64,000 bases of DNA from an uncultured Ruficoccus sp. (GCA_965140785.1 OZ223497.1:64001-128000); one strand, 5' to 3'; counted from the stretch's first letter, positions 19,910 to 63,784 are shown. Program-made: numbers and translations. Notes: a model not told the origin generated them from the letters alone.

Positions 19910-21019
19910 ATGCCGACAACAAGCGCCAAATCAGTCAGGAAGCTCGATTATGTTTTTGACGAACTTACTGGCCGGCTTGCTGCCCGGGAATGGAACGTAG
20001 GTGAACGAATTCCGACGGAAATTGAGCTGGCAAAAGAATACGGATGTGCCCGCGGCACCGTGAACCGAGCGATTGAGCGAATGGTTCACGAGGGGTTGCT
20101 GGAGCGTAAGACGCGATCAGGGACTCGTGTTCTCCGAAACCATATCAGGCAAAATCAGGCTCCGCTCGAATTGGATGCATGCGCACTGATTTATCCGAAT
20201 GAGCTCCATGAGGGGATTCGGCGTATATCCCAGGGCTTTCAGGATGCTGCGGCCAGAGATGGAAGTCGTATCCTCATGATGACGACTGGCCTTGATACCA
20301 AGAAGGAGTCCGAAATGGTTAGTCGCTTGTCGGAGTTTGATGTCAAGGGTGCGGCTATTTTTCCTGTTACGCTCGGCCCGCAAGAACGTCTAGATTTCAC
20401 GCGAATGGTATTGGCGTGTAAGTTCCCGGTTGTCCTTCTTCAGACTTTGATGCCGGATACGGGTTGCTATAGCGTGTCCGTTGACGGCCTCCATGCCGGG
20501 TTTACGATGACTAAGTATCTGCTCGGGCAGGGCCTTCGACGCGTAGGTTTTTTTGGTAATTACGGGTGGTCTCTGCTCATACGTGAAAAGCACACGGGGT
20601 ATCGACAGGCTATGTATGAGGCGGGGCTGGATGATGTTTGCCAGGAGCTCAGCTACTTGCAGTTGGAGATGAATCCCGATTTTGATAAGCCTTCGGATGA
20701 ACCCGAGGAGATTGCTCGTGATTATCTTGAAGCACATCCTGACCTTGAGGCGGTTGTCTGCGCTTCGGATTACATGGCGTTAGGGGTCATGGACGCTGCG
20801 ATAAAGATGGGAAAGCGTGTCCCGGAAGACCTTCGAATTGTTGGTATTGATGGATTTGAGTCAATTAAGCCGCAAGTAGCCCTGACGAGCTACCGTGTTC
20901 CCTATGAGAAGATCGGAGAGCTGTCCTTGGACCTTTTGCATAAGATTATCCGTGGAGAGCAAAGCGGTCTACGTGAAGTACAACTTCGTGGTGAGCTTGT
21001 TGTTCGAGACAGTGGATGA
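19910..21019 (+). CDS. GntR-HTH / LacI-type sugar-binding regulator (AraR-like)
   Basis: RIPTEIELAKEYGCARGTVNRA...GTRV, plus C-terminal SDYMALG, RVPEDLRIVGIDG. Confidence 0.92.
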   Translation: MPTTSAKSVRKLDYVFDELTGRLAAREWNVGERIPTEIELAKEYGCARGTVNRAIERMVHEGLLERKTRSGTRVLRNHIRQNQAPLELDACALIYPNELHEGIRRISQGFQDAAARDGSRILMMTTGLDTKKESEMVSRLSEFDVKGAAIFPVTLGPQERLDFTRMVLACKFPVVLLQTLMPDTGCYSVSVDGLHAGFTMTKYLLGQGLRRVGFFGNYGWSLLIREKHTGYRQAMYEAGLDDVCQELSYLQLEMNPDFDKPSDEPEEIARDYLEAHPDLEAVVCASDYMALGVMDAAIKMGKRVPEDLRIVGIDGFESIKPQVALTSYRVPYEKIGELSLDLLHKIIRGEQSGLREVQLRGELVVRDSG

Positions 21020-21070
21020 GCCAACTTTGTTTTAATTTTAACGAAAACGATACCTAAACCCCAATAAATA

Positions 21071-21952
21071 ATGAATATCTCAGTAATTAGTAAATGTGCA
21101 CTAGCATTTTCGCTCACAGTGGCTGCGGCGAGCGCTGCCTCCGCGCAAATTCTTTTTTATGATTTTAATCAGACTGGAAGCTCTGTATCAAGCAGTGGGT
21201 CCGCCGATTACTCGCTGACGATGAGAGACTCCAATGGCGATATTGCAGATCTTCACTCGGCTGAGGGTGGGGGTGTGTCAGGAGCGTCAGATGATCGAGC
21301 ATTCGATAATACAGCGGCATCTGGGATGGGGAGTGCCGGGCAGAAAACAGGCGGATACGCTTATACTTCGTCAGCTATTAGCTCTACGATTGGCGGACTG
21401 GAATCTTTTACGGTAACAGGTTGGTTTAAGTCTGATTCAGTAATTGATAATGCGGCAGGACTAGTCAAATTTACAGCATCGGGAAGTCCAAACGCAGGTG
21501 TCTATGTCTATGCGTCTAATACCGGTAGATTAACCCTTCAAGTAAATGACATAAATGGATCGTATGTGCCCAATTCAGATTATAGTATAACTGACGAATG
21601 GGTGTTCTTTGCCATCACCTATGATGGTACAAAAACCAGTGACAACGTTGATTACTATATTGGTACTTCGACGGAAAGTGTGAGCTTGGCATATACTGCC
21701 ACTCTGGATGCAGGAACCGTAGTCGCTGCAAACACCGGACTAAGCGTTACGGTTAGCTCTCGGCCATACGATGGATATATGGACGACATTGGACTTTATG
21801 GGTCGTATGAGGACGATAGCGGTGTGCTCTCAATGGAGGCATTAGAGGATGCGCGAGCTGCCAGTGTTCCCGAGCCTTCATCCTCTTCGCTTTGTCTTGG
21901 TGCCCTTATCCTTTTAGCGATTGGCTATCGCCGCTTGTGTCGTCGCGATTGA
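21071..21952 (+). CDS. LamG/ConA-like PEP-CTERM surface protein (paralog 1)
   Basis: Signal peptide; FTVTGWFK, EWVFFAITYDG, YDGYMDDI; VPEP-TM-RR tail. Confidence 0.88.
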   Translation: MNISVISKCALAFSLTVAAASAASAQILFYDFNQTGSSVSSSGSADYSLTMRDSNGDIADLHSAEGGGVSGASDDRAFDNTAASGMGSAGQKTGGYAYTSSAISSTIGGLESFTVTGWFKSDSVIDNAAGLVKFTASGSPNAGVYVYASNTGRLTLQVNDINGSYVPNSDYSITDEWVFFAITYDGTKTSDNVDYYIGTSTESVSLAYTATLDAGTVVAANTGLSVTVSSRPYDGYMDDIGLYGSYEDDSGVLSMEALEDARAASVPEPSSSSLCLGALILLAIGYRRLCRRD

Positions 21953-22057
21953 TACCCCAGTCGTCGTCCCGTCTCTTGATTTTGGTTAATAAGCAATGAT
22001 GGAGGACACCTTCATCAATAGCTTAGTAATCTACATCCGTAGCCGTTAGGAGATATT

Positions 22058-22717
22058 ATGAATCCACGCGTGGAATATTCGTGCCGACGTTCACAGCCAG
22101 CCTTTTCACTGGTAGAACTGTTGGCGGCAATTGGTGTAATTACTATTCTTGCCGCACTTGTTATTGTGGGCATTAGATCTGCTCGTGTTGCTGCTCAACG
22201 TTCGGAGTGCACGAGTCAGCTACGACAAATTGCCAGCCTCATTCTGTTGAACGCCGCAGATAGTAAGCAGGAGGTGCTTCCGGCGTATTCAGGTATAGCC
22301 GGAGAAACCGCTGGAAGCTATTGGTATGCGCGGACGTCTCCATTGACCAACTACATTGATGAAGATGAGCTTCAGCAACTTGCAGTGTGTCCGGTAAATC
22401 GAACGGATGGTTCGTTGGATGTCGTTGACGGCCTGTATATTCGAAACGACTACGGATATCCCTATGTTCCAAACTACTACGTCATGAAGAGTAACGGTCG
22501 GGATTTGGTGCATTTGAGTGATATAATTGATCCCCCAGGGACCATTCTTATGGCGGATGCAGTGTCAGGTCCGGGGTGGGGCGTTGGTTTTGCGTGGAGC
22601 CAACTTTCAAGAGTCGGAACCCAACACGGTGGTAACACAAATATCCTATGGTGCGATGGGCATGTGTCTTCCATCGATAAAAATGAACTGACGCTGGATA
22701 AGCTTTTATTGGATTAA
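22058..22717 (+). CDS. Prepilin-type N-terminal cleavage protein with H-X9-DG C-terminus
   Basis: AFSLVELLAAIGVITILAAL, CTSQLRQI, HGGNTNILWCDGHV. Confidence 0.92.
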   Translation: MNPRVEYSCRRSQPAFSLVELLAAIGVITILAALVIVGIRSARVAAQRSECTSQLRQIASLILLNAADSKQEVLPAYSGIAGETAGSYWYARTSPLTNYIDEDELQQLAVCPVNRTDGSLDVVDGLYIRNDYGYPYVPNYYVMKSNGRDLVHLSDIIDPPGTILMADAVSGPGWGVGFAWSQLSRVGTQHGGNTNILWCDGHVSSIDKNELTLDKLLLD

Positions 22718-22840: not shown

Positions 22841-24028
22841 ATGATCCCATTGCATAAGCCATCTCTGTTTTCTGTCTGGGATGATCCTGTGAGCGGTGTT
22901 GACAGTTACGTCCTCACCCGACGGATATCGCCCATTCAGCAGTCATTTTATTTTACGTCGCCGAGTGTAAGTGCTGAGGGACGCTACTATATGTTCTACG
23001 TGGCGGACCCGCCCACGGTTGGGCATACGCTAGGGTGTGTGGATTTCCTCACAGGAGAGGTGTATCATATTCCAGGTACACAATTTCGGAGCTGTGTCCC
23101 ATACATGGATTTGGTGAACAATACTCTCTACTGGAGTTCAGGGGTAAACGTCTGGAAGCGTGGCTTAGAGCAGGGTGATGTCGCAGAGAGAGTCAGTGTG
23201 ATTCCCGCGTCGATTACAAGGGGGTATCCAATCTCCTCTGTGGCCACGCACTTCACACAGTCCGCCGATCACCACTATCTGAATATGGACTTTCGTGTCG
23301 GTAACGAATGGCAGGTCGGTCGAATTTCTCTGGATGAAGGTGACGTAGAGCTGTGGCAAAGCTTTCCAAGAGCATACAAGCACAGCCAGTTCTCTCCCAC
23401 AGATCCGGACTTGATGCTCATCGCTCAGGATTTTTATCAGGATTACGAAACAGGTATTTCCTATGGGTATTCAAACCGCCTGTGGACAATTCGTAAAGGG
23501 GAGCCAGCTCAGCCCGTATTCTCCCGCGCCGATGCGTTGGCACCGACGGAGATTGTCATGGTAAACGCTCATACCGGATTTCATTCATATGAGAGCGATC
23601 CTCGCTCCACTTTGGGACATGAGTGGTGGAGTGCCGATGGTCAGTACATCTGGTATGTCCATTATGGGAGGGGAGTTGGGCGAGTTAAGCTCGATACACT
23701 GACGCCTGAACTCCTATGGGCATTGCCTCGCGTGACTCACGCTCATGCTGACAGTAGCGGGCAATACCTTGTGGCTGACAATATCCCGGAGGACGATCCT
23801 GATGATCAGCGTATTATTTTCTTTAACTGTAAAACCGGCAAGACTGTGAACATTGTTTCGGCTTTGCCCGATATGGCCCCATGGCCCGATGAATATCGAA
23901 AATACCATGTGCATCCTCATCCGCACTTCTGCGCTCACGATGCGCTAATTTGCTACACCACAACGGTGATGGGGAGGCCGGATGTCGCTTTCGTAAAAGT
24001 CGATACCTTGATCGAAGCGACCAGCTAA
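22841..24028 (+). CDS. Oligogalacturonate-lyase-like beta-propeller
   Basis: QSFYFT, HSQFSP, GHEWWS, HAH, HPHPHF motifs. Confidence 0.7.
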   Translation: MIPLHKPSLFSVWDDPVSGVDSYVLTRRISPIQQSFYFTSPSVSAEGRYYMFYVADPPTVGHTLGCVDFLTGEVYHIPGTQFRSCVPYMDLVNNTLYWSSGVNVWKRGLEQGDVAERVSVIPASITRGYPISSVATHFTQSADHHYLNMDFRVGNEWQVGRISLDEGDVELWQSFPRAYKHSQFSPTDPDLMLIAQDFYQDYETGISYGYSNRLWTIRKGEPAQPVFSRADALAPTEIVMVNAHTGFHSYESDPRSTLGHEWWSADGQYIWYVHYGRGVGRVKLDTLTPELLWALPRVTHAHADSSGQYLVADNIPEDDPDDQRIIFFNCKTGKTVNIVSALPDMAPWPDEYRKYHVHPHPHFCAHDALICYTTTVMGRPDVAFVKVDTLIEATS

Positions 24029-24117: not shown

Positions 24118-26424
24118 ATGCATTTAATTGACTGGATCATAGTAATTGTACCGACACTGGGCATTTTAGGACTGGCTGTCTATTCACGTAAATATGTACG
24201 CGGTGTTGTGGACTTCCTTGCGGCCGGGCGTGTAGCTGGTCGATATGTCATTTCCGTCGGAGACATGACATCTTCGCTCAGCATCATTACCTTGATTGGG
24301 CTGGTAGAAATGAAATACCAGACTGGCTACGGTTTGATGTTTTGGTATAATCTCATCATGCCGGTCAGCATCGTGATGGGCTTGACGGGGTATTGCATTT
24401 ACCGTTTTCGGGAGACGAAATCTCTGTCGATCGGGCAGTTTCTTGAAATGCGCTATAGTAGGCGATTCCGGGTGATTGCAGCTGCACTGCGGACGTGCTC
24501 TGAGATGCTCACTAATGCCATTGGTCCCGCCATTGCCGCCAACTTTTTTATCTACTATCTGGGGCTGCCACATGAGGTTATGATATGGGGGGTACCTCTG
24601 CCGTGCTATGGGATTGTAGTAACGCTGGTCTTGTGCATGGCTATGGTCGTCATCTGGCCAGGCGGAAGAATCTCGCTGTTATTGACCGACTGCTTTCAGG
24701 GGCTGCTCAGCTACCCGGTCTTTGTCATCATAGGCGGATACTTGATTCTGAATATATCATGGAGTGGCGAGATCGCGCCGACCATGCTTGACCGGGCGCC
24801 AGGGCAAAGCTTTCTCAATCCCTTCGATATCTCCGAACTGCGTGACTTTAATGTGTTCGCCTTGTTCGTTCAGGTCGTAGGGCTGGTTTTGAATCGTGCC
24901 AGTTGGATTGGTAATGACACATCGGGCTCAGCGCGAACACCCCATGAGCAGAAGATGGCCGGTTTGCTGGGGGCATGGCGTACCGGGCTATCGACGTTTA
25001 TGTGCATGACCATTGCTGTGCTGGTGATTACGGTTCTGACGCATCGCAACTATGCAGATGAGGCCCGTGAGATTCGCCAGACTCTTTCGGATAAGGTCTC
25101 GGAGAAAGTTGTAGTGGACGATGATGTCCGTAATCAGTTGAAGGATCAAGTAGCCGCGATTCCCGAGCAGCGCCATATCATCGGAGAGGAGGCTCCACTG
25201 TCCCAGCAGAAGAATCTCGATACGGTCTATATTGATACCGCCAGGGATGTGCTAGGTGATGGCCCCGAGGGTAACCGCCAAGTGCAGAACTACCGGACAC
25301 TCTTCTATCAGATGATGATGCCGGTAACATTGAGTCATATCTTTCCCGCCGGGTTGATGGGCCTGTTCTGCTTGCTGATGCTTATGCTGATGTTGTCCAC
25401 GGACGATTCCCGCATCTTCAACTCTGCCTCAACTATTGTGCAGGATGTTATTCTTCCCTATTTGAAAAAGCCGCTTAGCCCTCGCCGACACCTCATGCTG
25501 TTGCGTCTTATTTGTCTGGTTACGGCTATCTTCTTTTGGTGCTTTTCCATGCTCTTCGTGAACTTGGACTACATCAATATGTTCATCACGATCATGACCG
25601 CGATCTGGCTGGGTGGGGCCGGACCGATCATGGTCTTTGGCTTATATAGCCGCTTTGGGACGACCGCCGGGGCATATGCGTCGCTTCTGCTCGGAAGCGG
25701 ATTTTCCATTGCTGGCCTCCTGCTTCAGCGCAATTGGGCAGCTCATGTTTATCCCTTCTTGGACCAGCATGGGTGGGTTGACTCAGTGGGGCACTTTTTC
25801 ATCACCCTCTCCAGTCCGTTTGCTCCCTATGTTGAGTGGAAGATGAGTGCTGTGAAATTCCCGATCAACTCCTACGAACTGTACTTTATGGCGATCATGC
25901 TCGGGATATGTGCCTATATCATTGTCTCGCTTGTAACCTGCAGGAAACCTTACAACCTCGACCGACTCCTGCACCGTGGGCAATACAGCATCGACGGGGC
26001 CAAGCACATCGATACGCCATGGTCCTGGGGAAATGTCTTGAGGAAGATTGTAGGCATCAACCCCGACTATACCCGTGGTGACAGGATTATTGCTTGGGCC
26101 ATTTTCTATTACTCGATTGTCTACAAGTTCGGCCTTTGCTTCGTGCTGGTGCTCGTCTGGAACTTAATCAGCCCATGGCCGAAAGAGTGGTGGAGCGTGT
26201 ATTTCTTTATCGTGTATATCGCTGTGGCGATCTCCATCGGTGCCATCACAACCGTTTGGTTCATGATTGGTGGTATTGTTGATGCGCGGCGGCTTTTTAG
26301 GGATTTGCGTGAACGCGTGGATAATCCACTGGATGACGGTCGCGTTGAGGGTGAAGTCTCCCTCATGGACAAGACAGCTTTTGATGAGTACGAAAATGAC
26401 TCTGCTACTAACAAAAAATCTTAA
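24118..26424 (+). CDS. Sodium:solute symporter family protein (paralog 1)
   Basis: DFLAAGR, SIGQFLEMRYSR, many TM helices, large hydrophilic loop. Confidence 0.9.
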   Translation: MHLIDWIIVIVPTLGILGLAVYSRKYVRGVVDFLAAGRVAGRYVISVGDMTSSLSIITLIGLVEMKYQTGYGLMFWYNLIMPVSIVMGLTGYCIYRFRETKSLSIGQFLEMRYSRRFRVIAAALRTCSEMLTNAIGPAIAANFFIYYLGLPHEVMIWGVPLPCYGIVVTLVLCMAMVVIWPGGRISLLLTDCFQGLLSYPVFVIIGGYLILNISWSGEIAPTMLDRAPGQSFLNPFDISELRDFNVFALFVQVVGLVLNRASWIGNDTSGSARTPHEQKMAGLLGAWRTGLSTFMCMTIAVLVITVLTHRNYADEAREIRQTLSDKVSEKVVVDDDVRNQLKDQVAAIPEQRHIIGEEAPLSQQKNLDTVYIDTARDVLGDGPEGNRQVQNYRTLFYQMMMPVTLSHIFPAGLMGLFCLLMLMLMLSTDDSRIFNSASTIVQDVILPYLKKPLSPRRHLMLLRLICLVTAIFFWCFSMLFVNLDYINMFITIMTAIWLGGAGPIMVFGLYSRFGTTAGAYASLLLGSGFSIAGLLLQRNWAAHVYPFLDQHGWVDSVGHFFITLSSPFAPYVEWKMSAVKFPINSYELYFMAIMLGICAYIIVSLVTCRKPYNLDRLLHRGQYSIDGAKHIDTPWSWGNVLRKIVGINPDYTRGDRIIAWAIFYYSIVYKFGLCFVLVLVWNLISPWPKEWWSVYFFIVYIAVAISIGAITTVWFMIGGIVDARRLFRDLRERVDNPLDDGRVEGEVSLMDKTAFDEYENDSATNKKS

Positions 26425-26430
26425 CTGAAC

Positions 26431-28164
26431 ATGACAATATCCCCCCTCTATATCATGCTTGCAGCGCTTACGTTAAGCGCTTGCAAAGAGAATAAATCAA
26501 TGGCCCTTGAGCCGGCTGTGACAGATTCTAACGTTAGCCTGCGACAGGCCATGGCAGTTGACGGCAACACGCTCTGGCAAGAGTATGTGCAAGCTCCGGA
26601 TACGCATCCCAATATTCCGAACTGCTCCTATGCGGGCTATCATTATGGCGAGGATCCGATTCCTGTCATCGAAGGCCCGGTGTATGATGTCAGGGATTTC
26701 GGGGCACAGGGAGATGGTGCCGCGGATGACACTCAGGCGATCCGTGATGCCCTGGCGGCCGTGGGGGATGATGGCGGTGTTGTCTATCTTCCGGATGGGG
26801 AATACCTGGTAAGCGGTGTTTTGTTTATACACAAGGACAAGACCGTCTTGAGAGGTGAGAGTGAGGACGGTACCATTATACGCTTTACGAAACCTCTCAA
26901 CGAAGCCTACCGACTGGCCAACTATCCGTCTAGTATTCCAACGGGCTACGCCACGAAGTGGAACTACTCTGGTGGCTTAGTTTGGGTCACGCCCGAGTCT
27001 CGGGGTAACACCTACCTGCCTGAGGGGACAGACCCGACAGGTGAGGCATCCGCGCTGCCCGATATCAAGACTGGCTGGCACTCACAGGCGCCCGCAGCGA
27101 TAATCGCCGAAAAAGCCGAGCGTGGCGATCGCGTCCTGCACCTTCGGTCTTCTGTTCCGTCGTGGAAGCCCGGCGATATCGTAATCTTGATTCAGAAGGA
27201 CCCTGGCGACTATTCATTTCTAAACGACCTGTGTGGGGGCGGGGAGTGGGCTGCCCAATACGACTGGACGCAGAAGAATGGGGCTGGCTGGGCCAACCCC
27301 GGCGCACTGATGTGGCCAGTAGAGCTAAAGGCTGTTGATTGGACGAACAACACGGTTACGTTGAGGCAGCCTTTGCGTTTCGATGTGGATACGGCCTGGA
27401 AGGCGAAACTGGTTTCCCTGGCCAAGCCAATCTCTGAGTGCGGGATTGAGAGCCTTACGTTGATTTGCGAACGAGATTATCAGTGGACGGTAGAGAAAAA
27501 TCACCACATCGATGTGGGCTGGAACCCCGTCTACTTTAACAACGCCGTTAATTGCTGGCTCACAGACGTGACCATGGTCGATGTCGAGAATGGCCTGAAC
27601 GTCGAATCTTCCAAGTGCCTGACTCTGCAGGATTTTACAATTATAGCTAGCAGTCCTGAGTTGATGACGCACCATCATGGGACGACGGCGCGGGGACGAA
27701 GCGCGGATATCCTCTTCAGCGATTTTGACATCGAGAGCCAGCCGATGCACGGGATTAACGTAGAGGGCTTTACCTGCGGCGTGGTATGGATGCGTGGCGT
27801 ACTGGAGCATGGTATTTTCGATACCCATCGGCAGATGCCCTTCGAGAATATGAAGACAGATGTCACACTCGTTAACAACGATGGCGCACGCGGTGGCATG
27901 GGTGGGCCCCTGATGGGAGCTAGATGTGTAAACTGGAATGTTACTATCGAATCCGGCAATCCGTACATCGCCGGGTGGGCAAATATACGTCCGCATGGGG
28001 CTTTGGTCGGCCTCCAGGGGGTACAGCCGGTGTGGGACGCATACGCGAGTATTACGCCGACCGGTGAGGTTTCGGAGTGCCGGGTAGAGGACCTTGGTGT
28101 CGTGCCTGAACCCGAGAATCTCTACGAGGCACAGCTCGCTCTGAGGCTTGCGACTGAACAGTAG
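26431..28164 (+). CDS. Lipoprotein with pectate-lyase-3/GH55-like beta-helix
   Basis: LSAC lipobox; SYAGYH, VRDFGAQGDGAADDTQAI, GGVVYLPDGEY, VLRGE. Confidence 0.8.
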   Translation: MTISPLYIMLAALTLSACKENKSMALEPAVTDSNVSLRQAMAVDGNTLWQEYVQAPDTHPNIPNCSYAGYHYGEDPIPVIEGPVYDVRDFGAQGDGAADDTQAIRDALAAVGDDGGVVYLPDGEYLVSGVLFIHKDKTVLRGESEDGTIIRFTKPLNEAYRLANYPSSIPTGYATKWNYSGGLVWVTPESRGNTYLPEGTDPTGEASALPDIKTGWHSQAPAAIIAEKAERGDRVLHLRSSVPSWKPGDIVILIQKDPGDYSFLNDLCGGGEWAAQYDWTQKNGAGWANPGALMWPVELKAVDWTNNTVTLRQPLRFDVDTAWKAKLVSLAKPISECGIESLTLICERDYQWTVEKNHHIDVGWNPVYFNNAVNCWLTDVTMVDVENGLNVESSKCLTLQDFTIIASSPELMTHHHGTTARGRSADILFSDFDIESQPMHGINVEGFTCGVVWMRGVLEHGIFDTHRQMPFENMKTDVTLVNNDGARGGMGGPLMGARCVNWNVTIESGNPYIAGWANIRPHGALVGLQGVQPVWDAYASITPTGEVSECRVEDLGVVPEPENLYEAQLALRLATEQ

Positions 28165-28209: not shown

Positions 28210-29259
28210 ATGAAATCAGGAGATACCATTGACTTAGCCTATCGGAGTATCCGTAAGCATTATGAACTAAAGGGAAGTTTTGACCTGTACCAGGGGATTG
28301 TGAGTCTCTACGGCTTGGCCAGGCTGGTCGTGGATGCCGGAGCAGACCAGTATCTTGATGAGTTGAAGCGCGAACTCATGCCTTATGTGCGTGATGAGCG
28401 TCGTTTCAAATCAAACTTCCCCAACTACTTTTGCGGAGGTGTGGCGACTCCTTACTTGCTGTGGAAGGGCTTGCTCCCCGAAGCAGAGGGTATTGTGCGT
28501 CATTATGCCGAGGAGGTTATGAATGATGCGCCACGTGACCCGGCTGGAATTCTGTGCCATCCTCGCCACCCCGGTGAGTCCCGTATCTGGGTGGATGTCG
28601 CCTTCGCTGTTGGTCCGTTCATGCTGTTTGCCGGCTTGGCTCTCAACGATGAGCGATACCTGTCCGAGTCTTATGCCCAGACCGCTAAGATGTACAAGGT
28701 CTTAAGAGATCCTGAAAATGGCCTCATGCACCAGTCCCGAGGGTTCCGGGGGGCAGATTTTATTTCGGAGGATCACTGGAGCCGTGGTAACGGTTGGATG
28801 GCATTCGCTCTGACCGAACTGCTCCATTACCTGCCCGAGGATCATCCCGACCGAGAAGCCGCTGTTGCGCTTTATCTGGAGCACACGCTGGCCTGTGCTC
28901 AGTACCAAGGAGACGATGGTATGTGGAGACAGGAAATGACCGAAGTTCATCTATCCTACGTCGAGACCTCTGGGACGGCGCTGCTGCTATATGCTCAGGG
29001 GGTTGGCGTCGAGATGGGTGTCTTGGACAGTTCGTATCGCGAGCGTTTTGAAAGGGGAGTACGTAGCTTTCTGCGGTACGTATCTGACGATCTGGATGTT
29101 TATCACACCTGCTACGGTTGTCTGTGCCCAGGAGAAGGCACCAAGCTGGACTACATGGCCCACCGCACTGTTGTGAATGATGATCACGCCTTTGGACCAT
29201 TGGCGATGCTGATGGGGCAGGCGAGTGTACTGGGGATGTCCCACGTCACTGTTCAATGA
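28210..29259 (+). CDS. GH105/GH88-type unsaturated glycuronyl hydrolase
   Basis: IWVDVAF, WSRGNGW, GMWRQ, ETSGT. Confidence 0.85.
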   Translation: MKSGDTIDLAYRSIRKHYELKGSFDLYQGIVSLYGLARLVVDAGADQYLDELKRELMPYVRDERRFKSNFPNYFCGGVATPYLLWKGLLPEAEGIVRHYAEEVMNDAPRDPAGILCHPRHPGESRIWVDVAFAVGPFMLFAGLALNDERYLSESYAQTAKMYKVLRDPENGLMHQSRGFRGADFISEDHWSRGNGWMAFALTELLHYLPEDHPDREAAVALYLEHTLACAQYQGDDGMWRQEMTEVHLSYVETSGTALLLYAQGVGVEMGVLDSSYRERFERGVRSFLRYVSDDLDVYHTCYGCLCPGEGTKLDYMAHRTVVNDDHAFGPLAMLMGQASVLGMSHVTVQ

Positions 29260-42805: not shown

Positions 42806-42920
42806 TCGTCTTTCCATTGTGGGATATTTTTCATTCATTTGCACATAGTTTCATCAACTGCGATTGCTCGTTTATCTCGATCGGGCACGAGGTATTAATT
42901 GCCAAATAAGATTACGATAC

Positions 42921-44048: not shown

Positions 44049-44220
44049 ATACCTTTTTTATGTGTCCTTTATTTTACTTTATTGAAACGGACCATACATG
44101 AGAACTTAGCCCCATATCGAGTATATGCGTGCATAGGTATGATCGCTCCTTTGTGAGTTTGCCCGTTCTGGCATGATCCTGATCCTTGTTTGTCCTATCA
44201 TCTATCCAACCCGTTGCCCC

Positions 44221-44421
44221 ATGAAAAATACAGTTGCCCCGTATATGTGCACTTGGTTGAAAGCTGCCACGGTATGGTTAGTTTTTTACCGTTGGCTTTG
44301 TCTGTTCGCTGTGTGTGTTGAGCACAGGTTGTCATTCAAGGGGCGCACGCGCAGACAGCTGAGCTTAAGTTTCCCAACCGATGGCCGACTCGCTTGGAGT
44401 GTGAACGGCACTCAAATGTGA
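44221..44421 (+). pseudogene. Possible decayed remnant of a fourth LamG PEP-CTERM gene
   Basis: cccatgaaaaatacagttgc resembles the 41876 start; TDGRLAWSVNG resembles SDGRLSLNVNG. Confidence 0.5.
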
Positions 44422-44543
44422 TTAGACTTATGTGTGCTAAAAAGCCGTTAAATGTCAATGGTGATGGTAGTATTCATATATGTCTGTGATCTGTTGATTT
44501 CATGAAATTATTTTTGTTTTAAATCATAAGATTGATTATAGAA

Positions 44544-47399: not shown

Positions 47400-47556
47400 A
47401 GTAGTCATCCATCTCATGATTTTTTCGCGATTCACCCCATGTGCTGACGGAGGCTAACAAGCTCGCTCGGTAGCACGACAATCTCCATTGGAAGCCATGC
47501 CTTGCATATGCGTTTGCTGGGAGTTCACCTAAGATGCTTGAACGACATAAAGTAAA

Positions 47557-50004: not shown

Positions 50005-50032
50005 TTTGCCGAATTATAGAGTTAGTGATGCT

Positions 50033-50974: not shown

Positions 50975-50983
50975 AAAGTATAA

Positions 50984-52954: not shown

Positions 52955-53043
52955 AGTGCCGAAAATAAACCGCATATTACGGGCAGTCAATGTGGGCAAA
53001 TCTATTGTTGATGTCTGCCAAGACCAATCAGTCCGGTCGGTTT

Positions 53044-54084: not shown

Positions 54085-54308
54085 GATGGTAGGTCCAGAG
54101 TCGATATCTTTGGAGTGCCTCATCTTTAAGCGAGTCGGGATGAGTGCTTGCTGATGCATAGACTTGGCGTGTTTTCACGGATCGCCTCCCTGTCAGCGCA
54201 GGCCGTCATTGATGGGTGAAGCTTACTCGCCTTCCTGCCGGCTCGCCTCATGGCCACTTCGATTAAGCGGTCATGAGCGTATCGGGTCGTAGCCGGAAGA
54301 GGAGGCCT

Positions 54309-55001
54309 TTAATTCACCGGCACTGACTCGACATGCCAGTCAAAGAAAAGTGTGTTGCGGAAGTCTCCGTGAACCACACCCGCGACCCCGGCATCCATAT
54401 CCCGCACGGCCCACAGCGTGCTGGCATCGACCAGGCTGTTGAGCGTGCTCAATCGCAGGGGGCTGTCGGTCACGGACATGTCACCGACTTTCCCCCACGG
54501 AGATAGTCTCAATGTTCCCGATCTCAGATTTGAAATTGCCCATTGACAGACATAGGAGGACGAGGTCGCGGTCCAGTCCGATTCGGGGACGATACGCTCG
54601 AAAGCCGGGCAGACGCAGATCCGGCAAATCTCGCGGTCAGAATAGGCGGGGGCCTCATCCCTCATCCCCAGATATTGGCCGACATAGTACAACATGAACT
54701 TATCCTGCCCGGTCCTGAAGTAGTAGATGCCGAATGTTGAGTATGCCGGCCCCGGAAGCATGCCCGAGTGGTCATTGGTGTACAGGGATATGGCTGTTCC
54801 GATTTGCCTCAGGTTCGACGCGCACGTCACTTTTTCCGAGCTGCTTCTTATCCGGCCAATAACCGACACAACAATCGCCGCCAGAATCGCAATCACTGCG
54901 ATGCTCGCCAACAGTTCGATTAAACTGAACGCGCAAGGGGATGCCCCGGACCTACGCCGATGGATGCCCGTTGAAGACTGGACTGATATCACCTCATGCA
55001 T
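54309..55001 (-). CDS. Prepilin-type N-terminal cleavage protein (H-X9-DW variant)
   Basis: AFSLIELLASIAVIAILAAI, CASNLRQIG, HGDFRNTLFFDWHV. Confidence 0.92.
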   Translation of the reverse strand: MHEVISVQSSTGIHRRRSGASPCAFSLIELLASIAVIAILAAIVVSVIGRIRSSSEKVTCASNLRQIGTAISLYTNDHSGMLPGPAYSTFGIYYFRTGQDKFMLYYVGQYLGMRDEAPAYSDREICRICVCPAFERIVPESDWTATSSSYVCQWAISNLRSGTLRLSPWGKVGDMSVTDSPLRLSTLNSLVDASTLWAVRDMDAGVAGVVHGDFRNTLFFDWHVESVPVN

Positions 55002-55109: not shown

Positions 55110-56045
55110 TTACCGCCTTCTCCTGCGTGCCCATGCCATGACCATGATGGCCACCCCCAAGGTCACCGACGTGGCGCCGGACTCTGGGATGGCGATGTCC
55201 GCCTCCCGAACGGCTTCCAACTGTGGGGCAGACAGGGCCGAGTCGTAGAGACGGATGTTATCCAGATCGCCGTCAAAGGGAGATAGATAATAGTGCCCAC
55301 CGATTAAGAAGGTCGAAGCACTGATCGTGACGGTGCCTGCATTGAGGGTGGTCGTTTGGACAAGCGTCAGGGAGGAGGAGTCGCTGGCATCGCCGACGTA
55401 CAAGGAGACATTGTTCGTGGACAAGGTGCTGTCGTATGTAACGGCGAAGTACACCCATTCGGATATGGCCGTGTAGCTGGCCAGGCTGATAATGCTGGTG
55501 CCGTTGACCGCCAACGACAGGCGCCCGCCAGCGGTGGTGAAGCCCTTGAGTTTTATCCCGCCGCCCTCGACGAGAATGGAATCGTTGCCAATGATGACCC
55601 CATCGGTCTTAAACCACCCGCTAATAGTAAAGGCTGTCAATGTCCCGAGGGTCACTGTTCCGGAGGCATAGCCGCCGGTGTTGCTCGAGCTCCCCATCCC
55701 GGAGGATGCGCTGTTGTCAAAAGAAAGATCCTCGGTCGTTCCAGATACTCCGCTGCCGGCACTGCCGTGCAGATCGGCACGGTTACCGTCCGAGTTGTAC
55801 ATGGTCAAGTCGTTGCCGGAGGAGCTGCCGGTGTTCTCCGCGGTCCAGTTATTGGTCGATGCGGTTTCGTCGAACAGATATTCGAGCACTGCGGTCTGGG
55901 CGTGCAGGCCCGGAGCGCTTACCAGTGCAACGCAGGCCAACGCGGCCAGAACTGCGCTGCGTGGAACGTTCCCGGAGTGGCTTAAAAACCTTATGATAAG
56001 GGCGATAGCTTTTTTGCGTATATTCGAGATAACTGAGTCCTTCAT
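55110..56045 (-). CDS. LamG/ConA-like PEP-CTERM surface protein (paralog 3)
   Basis: HAQTAVLEYLFDETA shared with paralog 2; FTISGWFK; IPES-TM-RRRRR tail. Confidence 0.88.
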   Translation of the reverse strand: MKDSVISNIRKKAIALIIRFLSHSGNVPRSAVLAALACVALVSAPGLHAQTAVLEYLFDETASTNNWTAENTGSSSGNDLTMYNSDGNRADLHGSAGSGVSGTTEDLSFDNSASSGMGSSSNTGGYASGTVTLGTLTAFTISGWFKTDGVIIGNDSILVEGGGIKLKGFTTAGGRLSLAVNGTSIISLASYTAISEWVYFAVTYDSTLSTNNVSLYVGDASDSSSLTLVQTTTLNAGTVTISASTFLIGGHYYLSPFDGDLDNIRLYDSALSAPQLEAVREADIAIPESGATSVTLGVAIMVMAWARRRRR

Positions 56046-56685
56046 TGTATGCTGGGGTTTGAGGTAAGTGACGTGGCTCAATGCACGGGGAGTCTCATGT
56101 GTACTTATCATTATGGACAGCCCGAATATGTACAAACACATCGATGTGCTTGCCCATGCACAGCGCCGGTTAATGTCTAATGGGAGACTATTCCGATTAA
56201 CCTGCACAAATGAGATCGTGCATCAATGAGGAGACAGGCAAGCCACCTGGGAAATGGATGGTCTGGAAGCCCGACCTTGCTGCGAGTAACGCCACTAGCC
56301 TAGATGCATGTCACAACTATTTATTAAATAAATGCTTATAGCTTTAATTCACGAAATTTCGGGCGCGAAGAACTTCCGCGCATCCTGCTAACGAGATCGC
56401 TTTGCTCAAAAGCAAAAAATGTTATCGTCTCGCTCACGCCAGGTTTATCAACGTGGGCTGGAGCGAAAAAGTTGATGCTATCGCTGTGGTTCTGAAAATC
56501 TCAAAAAAAAGCATAATGAGCATGCAATATTAGGATGCTATGCCTATTCATTTTTCGTAATGTAATCACATAGTATCAATCAGAAGCAGTGCCCTGCGGA
56601 GGATAACTCCTTCGCAGACCCGTCCCATCTTTTGTTCCTGCGGTCCGGCCCGGATGGCAGGTCAGGTCAGTACCGAATTTACCAT

Positions 56686-57577
56686 TCAGTGCGGGCTCAC
56701 TGTAGCGATTTCTAGTTCACACAGCCGGAGGATTCCATCCTCGCAGCGGTTAAAGAGGATGTATTTTCCGCCGCGTGAAAATACCGGATGGGTATGGGAT
56801 TTTATTTCAACATCCGGGACTTCGGTTCTATCGATGACGGGATATTTCGTGAACGGGATGAGCGGGGGCATCGCCTGGATGAGCATGCTGAACAGATAGA
56901 TGGTCTGGTTCCTTTTATCGCAGGTATCCAGAACGATGAACTTGCCGTCTGGAGAGGGGGACTGGTGGCTTCCTCCGCTTATGGGCTGGTCGGAGAGGAC
57001 CTTGAGGCTATGGGAGGTGGTGTCATATCCGGCTGACAGCCCGCCTTCGTCCAGCGCGTAGTTGCTGAGCGCTCCGAAATCCGTGCCCAGGGGCTGACGC
57101 ATGAAACGATGCTTTTGCTGTCGGGGCACCACATAATGTGGCAACCTAACCTCCCGACAAAATCAATGTTGCTGCCGTCAATAACTGAAATGAAATAATC
57201 GTGCACGAGTGTCCCGTGACGGGAAACCAGAAACAGAATGACCTTTTTCTGGTTGGGACTAATCTCCGCGCTAAAGCGCAGCAGGATACCCGAGTCCTTG
57301 ATGTCGTTACCTCTGGGGTGCGCGGCCAGGAGCGTTTGTATGTTTGTGATTTCAGAGCGCTCGCTCCCGTCGATGCGGTTGAGGTAGACTCCCATCTTAT
57401 GCTGCTCCTGCAAGGGGAAATCTTCATTTCTCTCGATGAAGGAACGATCTCGCCGCCCACTGTAATTGCACAGGATGCCCTGAGGCTGGATCGTCTGGGT
57501 TGTTTTTTTCCAATGACATAGACGGCTACGACATTCTCTTTTTCTGAGCGAGCGGATGTAAATGCTTGCTCATGCAT
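56686..57577 (-). pseudogene. Fragmented beta-propeller gene (oligogalacturonate-lyase/TolB-like)
   Basis: Overlapping partial ORFs in different frames; C-terminal HQSPSPDGK and HTHPVFSRGG. Confidence 0.6.
57563..57576. promoter_or_regulatory. Candidate operator TGCAT-nRG-YAAGCA (one of five copies)
   Basis: tgcttgctcatgca just upstream of the LacI start; other copies at 41766, 54145, 56147 and 63893. Confidence 0.65.
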
Positions 57578-57604
57578 TGGAGATGATTATCCTATCATCC
57601 ATTG

Positions 57605-58636
57605 ATGTCCTCTCCCACGAACAGGCCCCCCTCGATGGACGATGTCGCGCGTGTTGCCGGTGTGCACCAGACGACGGTTTCGCGGTGTTTACGCAATGAC
57701 CCGAGAATCCGAGAATCCGTACGCAACCGGGTCAAGCAGGTGGCGAAGGAATTGGGATACCGCCCCAACGCTATGCTGTCCGCTCTGGGGGCCATGAGGC
57801 GTAGCCGGGCGAGCGTTTCTTACCAAACTCCTTTGGCCTACATTAACTACGAGCGTGATAAGTCGCCGATGCAGACTGAGCACCTGGATGGAGCCCGCCA
57901 AGCTGCGGAAAAGCTCGGCTATAAGCTGGAGGTATTTACGCTCAACGACGACCTGCATGACGACCGACTGAGTAACATTCTTGTGGCCAGAAACATACTC
58001 GGGGTTATTATTGGGCCGTTGCCCTACGCTCATGGAAAGTTTACCCTACAATGGGAGAAGTTTGCTTCCGTGAGTATCAGCTATGCTTTCGCGGAGCCGT
58101 TGCTGGACCGCGTGGTAACGGACAGTTTTAAGGCTATGACCTTTGCTGTCCACGAATGCTTGAACCGTGGGTATAAGCGCTTGGGCGTTCTTCTCAACAC
58201 GGTCAACGATGAGAGAAACGAGAACTTGCTGTCCGCTGCTTATGCCTTGGCGCGGGAGAAACGTTCCACGTTGGCCAACCTGCGGGCGATGATTATCCCA
58301 GCATGGGATGAAGCACGCATTGGACGCTGGATCACGAGAAGTCGTCCCGACGTCATCATCTCGTCGAACTCCCTGCTTCCGGATATATCGCAATGGCTAA
58401 AATCTCGAAAGATTCGCGTGCCCGATGATATTGGGTTGGTGAATCTAAATGCCAAAGAGTGGACTGATTACAGCGGTATCAGCGAATGCACCCCGGAGCT
58501 TGGAGCCTCTGCCGTCAAGTTGCTGGTGCAAAAGCTCTATCACAATGAATTCGGGATTCCCAAGTCGCGCGTGACCCTGGTGAACGACTGCTACTGGTAT
58601 GAAGGCAAGACTCTGCGTCCTCCCGCGTCTGCTTGA
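57605..58636 (+). CDS. LacI-family regulator
   Basis: MDDVARVAGVHQTTVSRCLRN, LGYRPN, RVPDDIG. Confidence 0.92.
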   Translation: MSSPTNRPPSMDDVARVAGVHQTTVSRCLRNDPRIRESVRNRVKQVAKELGYRPNAMLSALGAMRRSRASVSYQTPLAYINYERDKSPMQTEHLDGARQAAEKLGYKLEVFTLNDDLHDDRLSNILVARNILGVIIGPLPYAHGKFTLQWEKFASVSISYAFAEPLLDRVVTDSFKAMTFAVHECLNRGYKRLGVLLNTVNDERNENLLSAAYALAREKRSTLANLRAMIIPAWDEARIGRWITRSRPDVIISSNSLLPDISQWLKSRKIRVPDDIGLVNLNAKEWTDYSGISECTPELGASAVKLLVQKLYHNEFGIPKSRVTLVNDCYWYEGKTLRPPASA

Positions 58637-61461: not shown

Positions 61462-61480
61462 GGGAAAATCAATTTTGGTA

Positions 61481-63784
61481 TCATTGTTCAGGTTGCTTAT
61501 CTTCGGACTGTTTCCGCGACTCAAAGGCTGCTTTGTCCATCAGGGAGACTTCGCCTTCGACACGCCCATCATCGAGCGGATTATCTACACGCGCCTTGAG
61601 ATCGAGGAAAAGTCTGCGGGCATCGATAACACCGCCGATCATGAACCAGACCGTTGTGACGACACCAACGATGAGTCCGGCAATGATGATGGTTATGAGA
61701 AAATACGTACTCCACCATTCTTTTGGCCAGGGGCTGATCAAATTCCAGATGAGAACTATCACGAAGCAGCCGATAAACTTGTAGACGATCATGTAGTAAA
61801 AAATGGACCATGCGATAATGCGGTCGCCCTTTGTGTGGTCCGGCGTGATGCCGATCAGCTTTTTGATCAGGTTGCGCCAGGTCCAGGGGACGGCAATGTG
61901 CTTCTCTCCATCGATGCTGTATTGACCGCGGTGCAGGAGGCGTTCGAGGTTATAAGGAGTTTTATTGGTCAGCATCGACACGCTCACGTAGGCCGAGATA
62001 CCCAGGAGTATTGCGATGAAGGACAGCTCATAGGAGTTGATCGGGAACTTTACCGCGCTCATTTCCCACTCAATGTAGGGATTGAAGGGGCTGGAGGCCC
62101 GGGTGAGGAAATTCGCCGCTGTATCGACCCATCCATGACGGTCCAGGAAGGGATAGACGGTGTTTGCCCAGTTGCGCTGCAAAAAGAGCCCAAGAATCGA
62201 AAATCCACTGCCAAATAGCAGCGAGGCATAGGCTCCGGCCGTTGTACCGAAGCGTGAATACAGCCCGCCGATCATGATCGGCCCTGCTCCTCCCAGCCAT
62301 ATCGCCGTCATGATCGTGGTGAACATGTTGATATAATCCAGGTTGACGAACAGGATGGACACGCACCAGAAGAAGACGGCGACACCAACTGTGACGAGGC
62401 GCAGGAGCAGCAGATGGCGCTTGGGACTGAGGGTGGTCTTCAGGTTGGGTAAGATAATATCCTGAACGATGATCGAGGAGGAGTTGAACAGCCGTGAATC
62501 ATCGGTCGAAAGCATCAGCATCAAGACGAGCAGGCAGAACAGACCAAGCAGACCGATGGGAAACACCTGTTTGAGTGTCACGGGCATCATCATCTGAAAA
62601 TAAAGGGTGCGGTAGCGCTGGAATTGGTAATTCGCCTCCGGCGTATCTCCAAGTGTGTCACGAACCGTATCGAAGTAGACCGTGTCGAGATTGCTTTGCT
62701 GGGACAGGGGCGGGTCCTGGCCAATAATGTGGTGCTGTTCGGGAATCGCCGCAATGCGCTCATTAAGCTCGTCGCGCTTAGCCGGGTTCGTGACGATTTT
62801 CTCCGTGATTCTTTCGGAGAGCTCGGTACGCACCTCGCGTGCCTGCCCGGCGTAATTTATATGCGTCATGGTTGTGATGACCATGATCGCGATAGCGAGG
62901 GCCATAAACGCGGAAAGCCCGGCGCGCCATGAGCCCAGCAACCCAGCCATTTTCTGTTCGTGGGGCGTGCGTGCCGACGTGGTGTCGTTGCCAATCCAGC
63001 TTGCGCGGTTAAGGATACTGCTGAAAACCTGTACGGATAATGCGAAAATGTTGAAGTCGCGCAGTTGTTCGATGTCGAAAGGGTTTATGAAGCTTTGCCC
63101 GTCCACGCGGTCCATCATCGTGGGGGAAATCTCGTTCCCCCAAGAGATGTTCAGGATGAGATAACCTGTAATAATAACAAAAACGGGATAGCTGATCAGC
63201 CCCTGAAAGCAGTCGGTCATCAGCAGGGAAACGCGCCCCCCCGGCCATATCACCATCAGCGCCATGCACAGCACAAGTGTCACCACGATCCCATAACAGG
63301 GCAAGGGAACGCCGAAAACCATGACTTCGTGCGGCAATCCCAGGTAGTAAATGAAGAAATTGGCCGCGATGGCCGGGCCAATCGCATTCGTCAGCATTTC
63401 TGAAACGGTCCGTAACGATGCTCCTACGATACGGAATCGGCGGCTATATCGCATCTCTAGAAATTGTCCGATCGATAGCGACTTGGTTTCACGGAAGCGA
63501 TACGTGCAGTAGCCGGTTAAGCCCATGAAGATACTTACCGGCATGATCAGGTAGTGCCAAAAGAAGATGCCATAGCCGGTTTGGTATTTCATCTCCGTCA
63601 GGGCGACCAGCGTGATGACGCCCATGGTCGTTGTCATGTCCCCGACGGAAAGCACATAACGTCCGGCTACACGGCCAGCAGCGAGGAAATCAACAACACC
63701 ATGAACGAATTTTCGAGAATAGAACGATAGGCCCAAAATCGAGACGGTTGGGACAATTACGATGAGCCAGTCTATGAAATGCAT
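61481..63784 (-). CDS. Sodium:solute symporter family protein (paralog 2)
   Basis: Colinear with 24118-26424, with long identical stretches. Confidence 0.9.
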   Translation of the reverse strand: MHFIDWLIVIVPTVSILGLSFYSRKFVHGVVDFLAAGRVAGRYVLSVGDMTTTMGVITLVALTEMKYQTGYGIFFWHYLIMPVSIFMGLTGYCTYRFRETKSLSIGQFLEMRYSRRFRIVGASLRTVSEMLTNAIGPAIAANFFIYYLGLPHEVMVFGVPLPCYGIVVTLVLCMALMVIWPGGRVSLLMTDCFQGLISYPVFVIITGYLILNISWGNEISPTMMDRVDGQSFINPFDIEQLRDFNIFALSVQVFSSILNRASWIGNDTTSARTPHEQKMAGLLGSWRAGLSAFMALAIAIMVITTMTHINYAGQAREVRTELSERITEKIVTNPAKRDELNERIAAIPEQHHIIGQDPPLSQQSNLDTVYFDTVRDTLGDTPEANYQFQRYRTLYFQMMMPVTLKQVFPIGLLGLFCLLVLMLMLSTDDSRLFNSSSIIVQDIILPNLKTTLSPKRHLLLLRLVTVGVAVFFWCVSILFVNLDYINMFTTIMTAIWLGGAGPIMIGGLYSRFGTTAGAYASLLFGSGFSILGLFLQRNWANTVYPFLDRHGWVDTAANFLTRASSPFNPYIEWEMSAVKFPINSYELSFIAILLGISAYVSVSMLTNKTPYNLERLLHRGQYSIDGEKHIAVPWTWRNLIKKLIGITPDHTKGDRIIAWSIFYYMIVYKFIGCFVIVLIWNLISPWPKEWWSTYFLITIIIAGLIVGVVTTVWFMIGGVIDARRLFLDLKARVDNPLDDGRVEGEVSLMDKAAFESRKQSEDKQPEQ

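What the first reader, a model, noticed from the sequence alone, without database searches (positions are those of the whole stretch)
19910..63784. Repeated SusC/D-free glycan-utilisation cassette: LamG PEP-CTERM protein + pseudopilin + large SSS symporter
Seen: three loci (19.9-31.5 kb +, 40.7-52.5 kb +, 63.8-53.0 kb mostly -) each have a sugar regulator and a paralogous LamG-like PEP-CTERM gene. The paralogs share the motif DLHxxxGxGVSGxxxDxxFxNxxxxGMGS. In loci 1 and 3 the next gene is a prepilin/H-X9-DG protein, and both also carry an OGL-like propeller and a paralogous ~770-aa symporter. The CAZymes differ between loci and no TonB-dependent receptor is present. Established: PEP-CTERM is an exosortase sorting signal, and N-methyl-pilin/H-X9-DG proteins are expanded in PVC bacteria with unresolved function. 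Inference: a conserved chassis with swappable enzymes, where a surface lectin-like protein and a locus-specific pilin-like subunit take the place of SusC/D in glycan capture.
Basis: partly seen in the sequence, partly recalled or inferred. Interest (0 to 1): 0.85.

Follow-up and report, generated by a model that had tools for sequence, protein, structure and literature searches.

The report
Private pilins in sugar-utilisation loci
Two of three sugar-degradation gene clusters here carry their own small pilus-type protein beside a surface-anchored lectin-like protein, one case of a genome-wide design in bacteria that have almost no classical outer-membrane sugar importers, which gives concrete candidates for how they catch complex sugars.

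Summary
The genes are real, but the cassette as described is too narrow. Loci 1 and 3 hold regulator, LamG-PEP-CTERM, pilin and long SSS. Locus 2 has no pilin or SSS, and locus 3's propeller is a broken remnant. The recurring unit is a locus-specific H-X9-DG-type pilin. Of 49 in this genome, 32 lie within five genes of a LacI-type regulator (6.8 expected) and 20 sit next to a PEP-CTERM gene (2.5 expected), only 4 of these LamG. Pilin number tracks LacI number about 1:1 in 13 kin genomes. Twelve of 60 phylum genomes carry 51 or more pilins and no TonB receptor; 8 of them also lack exosortase, so PEP-CTERM is optional. A published single-replicate Verruconatronum proteome shows one such pilin only on alginate and another only on sucrose; its authors read this as type II export. 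Best reading (0.4): substrate-specific subunits of a retractile pilus that capture glycans. Rivals: export adaptors (0.25), adhesion only (0.2). Binding, filament assembly and import are unshown. The scan noted this design before, in this genome and others.

The parts
19910..21019 (+). Locus 1 regulator, GntR HTH + LacI-type sugar-binding domain
   Evidence: PF00392 + PF13377
21071..21952 (+). LamG-like PEP-CTERM protein 1 (293 aa)
   Evidence: PF13385 E 2.6e-9; PEP tail; low-confidence model (pLDDT 55) matches AbnA domain 4, pentraxins and legume lectins; profile hits 4qvs and 5hon
22058..22717 (+). Locus-specific H-X9-DG-type pilin 1 (219 aa), class III signal
   Evidence: PF07963, PF07596 weak; TIGR02532; model pLDDT 80.6 whose best structural matches are type IV pilins, top Z 5.9, rmsd 3.7, 122 aligned
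22841..24028 (+). Oligogalacturonate-lyase-like beta-propeller, no signal peptide seen
   Evidence: PF14583 below cut-off; heuristic
24118..26424 (+). Long sodium:solute symporter 1
   Evidence: PF00474; nearest named kin 56-62% in Akkermansia and Lentisphaeria records
26431..28164 (+). Beta-helix lyase/hydrolase-like protein with a lipobox-like N-terminus
   Evidence: PF12708; weak BT3328-family hit; sequence
28210..29259 (+). GH88/GH105-type unsaturated uronyl hydrolase
   Evidence: PF07470 E 9e-45
29308..31170 (+). GH127-like glycosidase
   Evidence: PF07944
40701..41702 (+). Locus 2 LacI regulator
   Evidence: PF00356 + PF13377
41819..42805 (+). LamG-like PEP-CTERM protein 2; no pilin or SSS in this locus
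   Evidence: PF13385; six-frame HMM scan
42864..52522 (+). Locus 2 enzymes: WbsX-like (PF14307), DUF6259, BNR propeller with signal peptide, CBM9-like protein, sulfatase
53044..54159 (-). GH43-like glycosidase, no signal peptide seen
   Evidence: PF04616 just below cut-off; heuristic
54309..55001 (-). Locus-specific pilin 3 (230 aa, H-X9-DW), a different subclade from pilin 1
55110..56207 (-). LamG-like PEP-CTERM protein 3
   Evidence: PF13385; 58% to protein 2
56686..57569 (-). Broken beta-propeller gene (5'-truncated, two frames)
57602..58636 (+). Locus 3 LacI regulator
   Evidence: PF00356 + PF13377
58663..61524 (-). Double FAD-dependent oxidoreductase (PF12831)
61481..63784 (-). Long sodium:solute symporter 3
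   Evidence: 73% to symporter 1; PF00474

Best explanation
These are regulator-led glycan utilisation loci of a TonB-poor Verrucomicrobiota bacterium, each of which encodes its own type IV pilin-fold subunit with a variable head. Shown: the gene clustering, the pilin fold, the class III signal, and that the genome holds prepilin peptidase, four assembly ATPases, three PilT retraction ATPases and secretins. Shown in a relative (one replicate): different pilins switch on with different substrates. Inferred: when the sugar relieves the LacI/GntR repressor, the pilin is built into a shared, retractile type IV filament. Its head, or a partner it carries, binds the locus's glycan, and retraction draws the polymer to or through the secretin. 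An optional PEP-CTERM lectin-like protein (LamG in this window; other folds elsewhere) acts as a surface glycan-binding helper, like the SGBPs of Bacteroidota. Periplasmic lyases or hydrolases cut the polymer, an SSS, MFS or ABC transporter imports the products, and cytoplasmic enzymes finish them. The three LamG and two long-SSS paralogues in this window are a local expansion inside a low-GC island, not the general design.
For: Genome: 32 of 49 pilins within 5 genes of a LacI-type regulator (6.8 expected). A PEP gene lies directly upstream on the same strand for 14 of 49 pilins against 56 of 3561 other genes (p 1e-13), and for 9 of 32 against 26 of 456 inside LacI neighbourhoods (p 1.5e-4). 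An SSF lies within 5 genes for 11 of 49 (background 0.054) and a sulfatase for 10 of 49 (0.057); 38 of 49 have a CAZyme, CBM or sulfatase within 4 genes. Machinery. Pilin count against LacI count: rho 0.96, slope 1.09 in 13 same-family genomes. Pilin pairs with similar heads share enzymes in 22 of 36 cases against 72 of 3044 dissimilar pairs. PMC13274419 Table S3: pilin 000050 is 0.513% of the proteome on alginate and 0 on sucrose, with neighbour 000049 (298 aa, signal peptide, one TM) 0.168/0 and SSF 0.073/0. Pilin 003013 is 0/0.033, next to a LamG lipoprotein, an MFS and a GH32. Only 3 of 51 pilins of 200-280 aa exceed 0.02% in any condition. The induced pilin is 8 times GspG 001301 (0.064). 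The co-induced operon that the authors call type II secretion contains PilT and PilN. Locus 3 here has no enzyme with a visible signal peptide to export.
Against: No glycan binding, filament incorporation or import has been shown for any member. The fold match is weak (Z 5.9; Foldseek none at E 0.001). PilT is in 58 of 61 phylum genomes, so it does not discriminate. The pilin/TonB anticorrelation is not significant on family means (rho -0.30, p 0.086), G077 has 20 pilins and 11 receptors, and TonB-rich genomes also have few LacI regulators. Locus-level exclusion was not significant (0 of 114 pilins within 6 kb of a receptor, 1.6 expected). Only 16 of 49 pilins have an annotated importer within 4 genes. 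In relatives, strict PEP adjacency was not significant (10 of 39 against 29 of 199, p 0.10). In the pilin-richest lineages the pilin usually precedes a large secreted enzyme, which suits the export rival. In the Verruconatronum table two small TonB receptor entries appear only on alginate (0.014, 0.015); the data are one replicate; 003013 is under the authors' 0.05% threshold; and I did not align those proteins to the window's pilins. Eleven of 49 pilins have no annotated glycan gene within 4 genes.
Confidence: 0.4

Rival explanations
1. Export adaptors: each pilin is a cargo-specific pseudopilin that lets a shared type II-like machine export or display the locus's secreted partner (a large hydrolase or the PEP-CTERM protein). 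Sugars then enter by porins and SSS/MFS.
For: This is the reading of PMC13274419. In G026, G069, G075, G078 and G008 the gene behind the pilin is usually a 770-1550-aa protein with a signal peptide; 9 of 14 scanned are GH42, GH123, PL8, heparinase, beta-helix or GH67N-type. In this genome 17 of 33 co-directional downstream genes have a heuristic signal peptide against 27% background. A full T2SS is on C40.
Against: Locus 3 has no secreted enzyme by heuristic. The induced pilin outnumbers GspG eightfold and the core T2SS is not induced. The induced operon has PilT. Known T2SS use one major pseudopilin and select cargo through GspC/GspD (recalled). Pilins also sit beside ABC, MFS, RhaT and haem-uptake genes.
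Confidence: 0.25
2. Substrate-specific adhesion or sensing: the pilin builds an adhesive filament that tethers the cell to the right particle; hydrolysis is external and nothing passes through the secretin.
For: It fits the same clustering and induction. Type IV-like pili are described as mediating attachment to glycans in Akkermansiaceae (PMC13174399) and Fimbriiglobus (PMC11131199 passage).
Against: It does not by itself explain how genomes with 51 or more pilins and no TonB receptor move oligosaccharides across the outer membrane, nor a pilin induced by soluble sucrose.
Confidence: 0.2
3. Unassembled role: the pilin stays in the inner membrane as a periplasmic binding or accessory subunit for the SSS/MFS transporter or a sensor.
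For: A pilin directly precedes the SSS in 4 of 19 long-SSS loci, and lies two genes behind it in a fifth (L092-L094, L099, L106). A weak DUF1559 ('SBP_bac_10') match.
Against: F+1 and E+5 are kept in 42 of 49 pilins, as assembly needs (recalled). Only 16 of 49 have an importer within 4 genes. The induced pilin is 7 times more abundant than its SSF.
Confidence: 0.1

Closest known systems
Bacteroidota polysaccharide utilisation loci (SusC/SusD, SGBPs)
   Same: Regulator, CAZymes, sulfatases, inner-membrane transporter and a variable surface lectin-like protein in one locus.
   Different: No SusC or SusD in the loci; the genome's only pair is on C9. The surface protein is anchored by PEP-CTERM, not as a lipoprotein; the regulator is LacI/GntR; a pilin is added.
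H-X9-DG (TIGR04294) / N-methyl + DUF1559 (PF07596) prepilin-like paralogue family of PVC bacteria
   Same: Class III signal, C-terminal H-X9-DG-like motif, dozens of paralogues; Atlas neighbours are N_methyl/SBP_bac_10 clusters of Verrucomicrobiota.
   Different: The window's two score below the TIGR04294 cut-off. The family has no assigned function in what I searched; here it is tied to nutrient loci about one per LacI regulator.
Verruconatronum alginivorum alginate operon pgaptmp_000046-60 (PMC13274419)
   Same: PulG-like pilin with 67 paralogues beside an SSF, lyases, a LamG protein and a LacI; co-induced by alginate.
   Different: The authors mention it in passing as type II export of alginases and name a TonB receptor for import. 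They do not describe a general pilin-per-locus rule or a PEP-CTERM link in the passages I read.
Akkermansia MUL2 and the planctomycete 'fishing-rod' pilus model
   Same: Type IV-like pili implicated in glycan attachment or uptake in PVC bacteria (PMC13174399; PMC12078418 passage).
   Different: MUL2 is one four-gene locus with PilM and an archaeal-like pilin; the fishing-rod model names no genes in the passage read. Here there are about 50 substrate-specific pilins.
Type IVa pili (PilA/PilB/PilT/PilQ) and T2SS pseudopili (GspG)
   Same: Pilin fold and signal; machinery present.
   Different: No T2SSG Pfam match for these pilins was seen, unlike the C40 GspG; the genes are orphans far from the machinery and under sugar regulators.

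Membership tests
SusC/SusD PUL | Tandem SusC-like TonB receptor and SusD gene in the locus | tested here: not met
   None among 49 window ORFs; the single SusD is on C9
SusC/SusD PUL | Clustered CAZymes, regulator and inner-membrane transporter | tested here: met
   Loci 1 and 3; locus 2 lacks a transporter
SusC/SusD PUL | Co-induction by the substrate | not testable with these tools
   No RNA holder listed for this DNA; shown only for a relative in one replicate
Type IV pilin superfamily | Class III signal (G/A-1, F+1, E+5) | tested here: met
   Both window pilins; 42 of 49 genome-wide
Type IV pilin superfamily | Long alpha-1 helix plus alpha/beta head | tested here: inconclusive
   Model H5-55 with C-terminal strands; ranks 1-18 are all pilins but top Z is 5.9, rmsd 3.7, 122 aligned
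Type IV pilin superfamily | Assembly into a filament | not testable with these tools
   Needs shearing, EM or proteomics
TIGR04294 H-X9-DG domain | Score over the curated cut-off of 19 bits | tested here: not met
   14.9 bits for pilin 1; no match for pilin 3
TIGR04294 H-X9-DG domain | C-terminal H-X9-DG motif with an N-terminal prepilin signal | tested here: met
   Exact in pilin 1, H-X9-DW in pilin 3; exact in 18 of 49
T2SS major pseudopilin GspG | T2SSG domain (PF08334) and place in a gsp operon | tested here: not met
   No PF08334 hit for either pilin; TIGR01710 16.6 bits against 88.85; true GspG on C40
PEP-CTERM / exosortase substrates | Signal peptide, C-terminal PEP-like motif, TM helix, basic tail; exosortase in the genome | tested here: met
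   Tails VPEP/IPES by sequence and my own HMM; Pfam PF07589 did not report them at E 0.001; three exosortase genes
Laminin_G_3 (PF13385) | Score over cut-off; ConA-like jellyroll | tested here: met
   37.8, 52.2, 51.9 bits against 27.6
Laminin_G_3 (PF13385) | Carbohydrate binding | not testable with these tools
   Fold neighbours include glycan binders and non-binders
Oligogalacturonate lyase (PL22) | PF14583 over cut-off | tested here: not met
   24.2 against 30 bits for locus 1; no hit for the locus-3 pieces

The most novel reading that the evidence does not exclude
PVC bacteria without TonB receptors import polysaccharides, and perhaps other large nutrients, through a retractile type IV filament that is reprogrammed for each substrate by swapping in a locus-encoded H-X9-DG/DUF1559 pilin, about one per sugar regulon. 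This would be a pilus-and-secretin counterpart of SusC/D and would assign a function to one of the largest orphan paralogue families of the superphylum.
Probability: 0.3. Interest if true: 0.9.

Novelty: new variant of a known kind. Interest (0 to 1): 0.65.

Why it matters
Verrucomicrobiota, Lentisphaeria and Planctomycetota are major degraders of fucoidan, alginate, mucin and plant glycans, yet how they move polymers across the outer membrane is described as unresolved (PMC12078418, PMC11131199 passages). A one-pilin-per-locus rule names the genes to delete and predicts the substrate of each pilin from its neighbours. It can be tested in cultured strains: a reciprocal alginate/sucrose proteome already exists (PMC13274419), and pilQ deletion strains of Planctopirus limnophila are reported (PMC11958385 passage).

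Tried and rejected
(1) Fixed LamG + pilin + long-SSS chassis: rejected. The LamG subfamily was found in 9 of 301 phylum genomes, with only 8 candidates scored per genome. (2) The quoted motif as a special feature of these three genes: it is the subfamily's N-terminal signature. (3) Locus-3 propeller as a paralogue of the locus-1 protein: no significant match. (4) LamG-pilin binding by complex prediction: the job never ran, so there is no verdict. (5) Expression: no RNA holder listed, which is no evidence either way. (6) Promoter and terminator scan of locus 1: at shuffle level (11 against 12.5; 11 against 10.1). (7) Foldseek on the pilin model: nothing at E 0.001. The LamG model is low-confidence (pLDDT 54.7), so its fold hits are leads. 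(8) Locus-level exclusion of pilins and TonB receptors: not significant. (9) PilT presence as a discriminator: near universal. (10) No random control was run for CAZyme density; unbiased genome-wide markers (LacI, SSF, sulfatase) were used instead. (11) Ten paper searches listed no paper describing a pilin-per-locus rule or a PEP-CTERM + H-X9-DG pair. Most subscription papers are not in the library, including the Lentimonas fucoidan proteome, and supplements of preprints were not visible; these may bear on novelty.


Full report
Setting. The window is C26:64001-128000 of a 4.36-Mb, 59% GC genome, 90.85% complete. The stretch from about 15 to 64 kb is 49-54% GC, holds several mobile-element remnants, and is bracketed by a 3.3-kb, 97%-identical direct repeat (window 4874-8179 and just past the window's end). 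It looks like an acquired island, and the nearest named relatives of its long SSS are Akkermansia and Lentisphaeria records at 56-62%.

Observation. Locus 1 is GntR/LacI regulator, LamG-PEP, pilin, OGL-like propeller, SSS, beta-helix enzyme, GH88/105, GH127. Locus 2 is LacI, LamG-PEP, WbsX-like, DUF6259, BNR protein, CBM9-like, sulfatase. Locus 3 is SSS, FAD oxidoreductase, LacI, broken propeller, LamG-PEP, pilin, GH43-like. The LamG proteins are 38-58% identical, the SSS 73%, and the pilins match only over 76 N-terminal residues. The motif is there but marks the whole subfamily. Locus 2 has no pilin or SSS in six frames. The locus-3 propeller is truncated and frameshifted and not a detectable paralogue of the locus-1 protein.

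Genome-wide test. I called 3716 genes with my own script. My pilin HMM gave 62 hits; I dropped 10 under 70 bits and 3 machinery-type pilins by hand, leaving 49. There are 106 PEP-CTERM genes (one added by hand, one tail-less LamG removed, so one search's 21 becomes 20), 59 LacI-type genes, 2 TonB receptors and one SusD. Twenty of 49 pilins have a PEP gene next door (2.5 expected); 14 have it directly upstream on the same strand (p 1e-13), and the excess holds inside LacI neighbourhoods (p 1.5e-4). Thirty-two of 49 lie within five genes of a LacI (6.8 expected), but only 5 of 49 near a long SSS and 11 of 49 near any SSF. From the regulators' side, 52 of 59 have a pilin or PEP gene within five genes. 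I scanned 195 of 255 neighbour genes with Pfam; 38 of 49 pilins have a CAZyme, CBM or sulfatase within four genes and 16 an importer (SSF, MFS, ABC, RhaT or haem ABC). No random control was run for those two counts. Of 43 non-window PEP proteins near these loci, 4 are LamG, 3 PATR, 1 each CBM96, Lectin_like, 3-keto-disaccharide and pectate-lyase-like, and 32 have no family beyond the tail. Four of the 20 adjacent partners are LamG.

Relatives. Nine of 12 same-family genomes carry 15-65 such pilins with 0-6 TonB receptors. Pilin number follows LacI number with rho 0.96 and slope 1.09 over 13 genomes, which are kin and not independent. In 39 of 40 fetched pilin loci from six genomes (one had no pilin call), a PEP gene lay within three genes in 23, a LacI was adjacent in 15 (p 7e-4 against other genes of the same loci), and strict PEP adjacency was not significant (10 of 39, p 0.10). 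Across 88 loci, pilins with similar heads (110 bits or more, 36 pairs) shared homologous enzymes in 22, LacI in 10 of 13, SSS in 4 of 4 and PEP partner in 7 of 15; dissimilar pairs shared enzymes in 72 of 3044. This shows whole-locus inheritance with an exchangeable PEP slot, the reverse of 'swappable enzymes on a fixed chassis'. The LamG subfamily is rare (9 of 301 genomes); of 9 foreign loci, 1 had a pilin within 1.5 kb, 5 a LacI-like gene, and 2 lacked the PEP tail.

Phylum. Nineteen pilin loci from four of them had LacI in 14, SSS in 2 and PEP in none; the usual layout is LacI, pilin, large secreted enzyme. These lineages are unnamed; that they are Lentisphaeria is my inference. Pilin against TonB count gives rho -0.35 over 81 genomes and -0.73 over 19 same-order genomes of 3.5 Mb or more, but -0.30 (p 0.086) on family means. 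Counts were typed at different thresholds, are capped at 51, come from a model built on this genome, and three TonB counts were lowered to drop weak matches. G077 has both (20 and 11).

Structure and machinery. The pilin model (pLDDT 80.6) has the long N-terminal helix; the 18 best VIA-align matches are all type IV pilins or pseudopilins, though the top Z is only 5.9. F+1 and E+5 are kept in 42 of 49. The genome has a prepilin peptidase, four PilB/GspE ATPases, three PilT over cut-off, a T2SS on C40, further secretins on C34 and C10 (one beside PilM), and three exosortases. The LamG model is poor (54.7) but matches ConA-type jellyrolls including AbnA domain 4.

Literature. PMC13274419 (passages, section 17 part 1, and rows of supplementary Table S3 seen) reports a PulG-like pilin with 67 paralogues inside an alginate-induced operon and suggests type II export. 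Its table adds what the passages I read do not say. The alginate pilin is 0.513% against 0; a second pilin beside a LamG lipoprotein, MFS and GH32 is seen only on sucrose (0.033); a third is constitutive (1.78/0.95); the other 48 of 51 stay under 0.02%. The main TonB receptor does not change (0.05/0.061), though two minor entries appear only on alginate. The induced 'type II' operon carries PilT. The data are one replicate; I did not align these proteins to mine or confirm a PEP tail on 000049. PMC12078418, PMC11131199, PMC11685898 and PMC11958385 (passages only) and PMC13174399 (first part of the text) give the fishing-rod hypothesis, pilus adhesion, MUL2 and available pilQ mutants. Boedeker 2017 and the MUL paper were seen only as cited there. 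Ten searches listed no description of the pilin-per-locus rule.

Mechanism. Shown: clustering, fold and signal, machinery, and substrate-specific induction in a relative. Inferred: assembly into a shared retractile filament, glycan binding, passage through the secretin, and a helper role for the PEP-CTERM lectin. I put capture by a retractile pilus at 0.4, export adaptor at 0.25, adhesion only at 0.2 and an unassembled periplasmic role at 0.1. Whether the LamG domain binds the pilin is open, since the complex prediction did not run.

Verdict. A real, recurring design built from known parts: it works like a PUL without being a SusC/D PUL. The pairing has been touched on in one paper, and this scan noted it before in this genome (e1-7725412, e1-7725471) and in others. 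The window's LamG/long-SSS version is a local variant. Interest 0.65, because it makes an open question about PVC glycan uptake directly testable.

Noticed in passing
window 4874-8179 and G000:C26:129249-132542; also C4:213864-216227: A 3.3-kb block (oxidoreductase, zinc dehydrogenase, mobile-element start) is repeated at 97% just past the window's end, bracketing about 60 kb of low-GC glycan loci; part of it recurs at 98% on C4.
   Followed up: partly
window 44218-44400: Decayed 5' start of a further LamG-2-like gene between the WbsX-like and DUF6259 genes.
   Followed up: partly
G000:C26:242944-244591 (L020): A LamG paralogue directly upstream of a pilin has lost its PEP-CTERM tail; a PEP-motif remnant lies out of frame, in the pilin's frame. 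Two foreign homologues also lack the tail (L158, L160).
   Followed up: partly
window 35560-36900 and 52515-53019: IS3-type remnants, 81-87% alike, flank locus 2 and its upstream block, suggesting it arrived separately.
   Followed up: partly
window 31209-31532: ADP-ribosylglycohydrolase-family fragment cut off by a mobile element at about 31494; intact paralogues occur in other glycan loci.
   Followed up: no
G000:C9 (L056:5838-10567): The genome's single SusC/SusD pair, flanked by esterases.
   Followed up: no
G000:C13:32226-33107 (L008): A pilin of this family sits in a haem-uptake locus (HemS/ChuX, periplasmic binding protein) with a PEP-CTERM gene, so the design is not limited to sugars.
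   Followed up: partly
G000:C10 (L051): Type III secretion genes (FHIPEP, secretin, YscI-like) in this genome.
   Followed up: no
window 15322-16359: A fourth PEP-CTERM protein with an FGE-sulfatase-like domain, next to an integrase.
   Followed up: no
PMC13274419 Table S3, pgaptmp_002757: A 251-aa orphan pilin is constitutively 0.9-1.8% of the proteome, a candidate housekeeping major subunit for this family.
   Followed up: no
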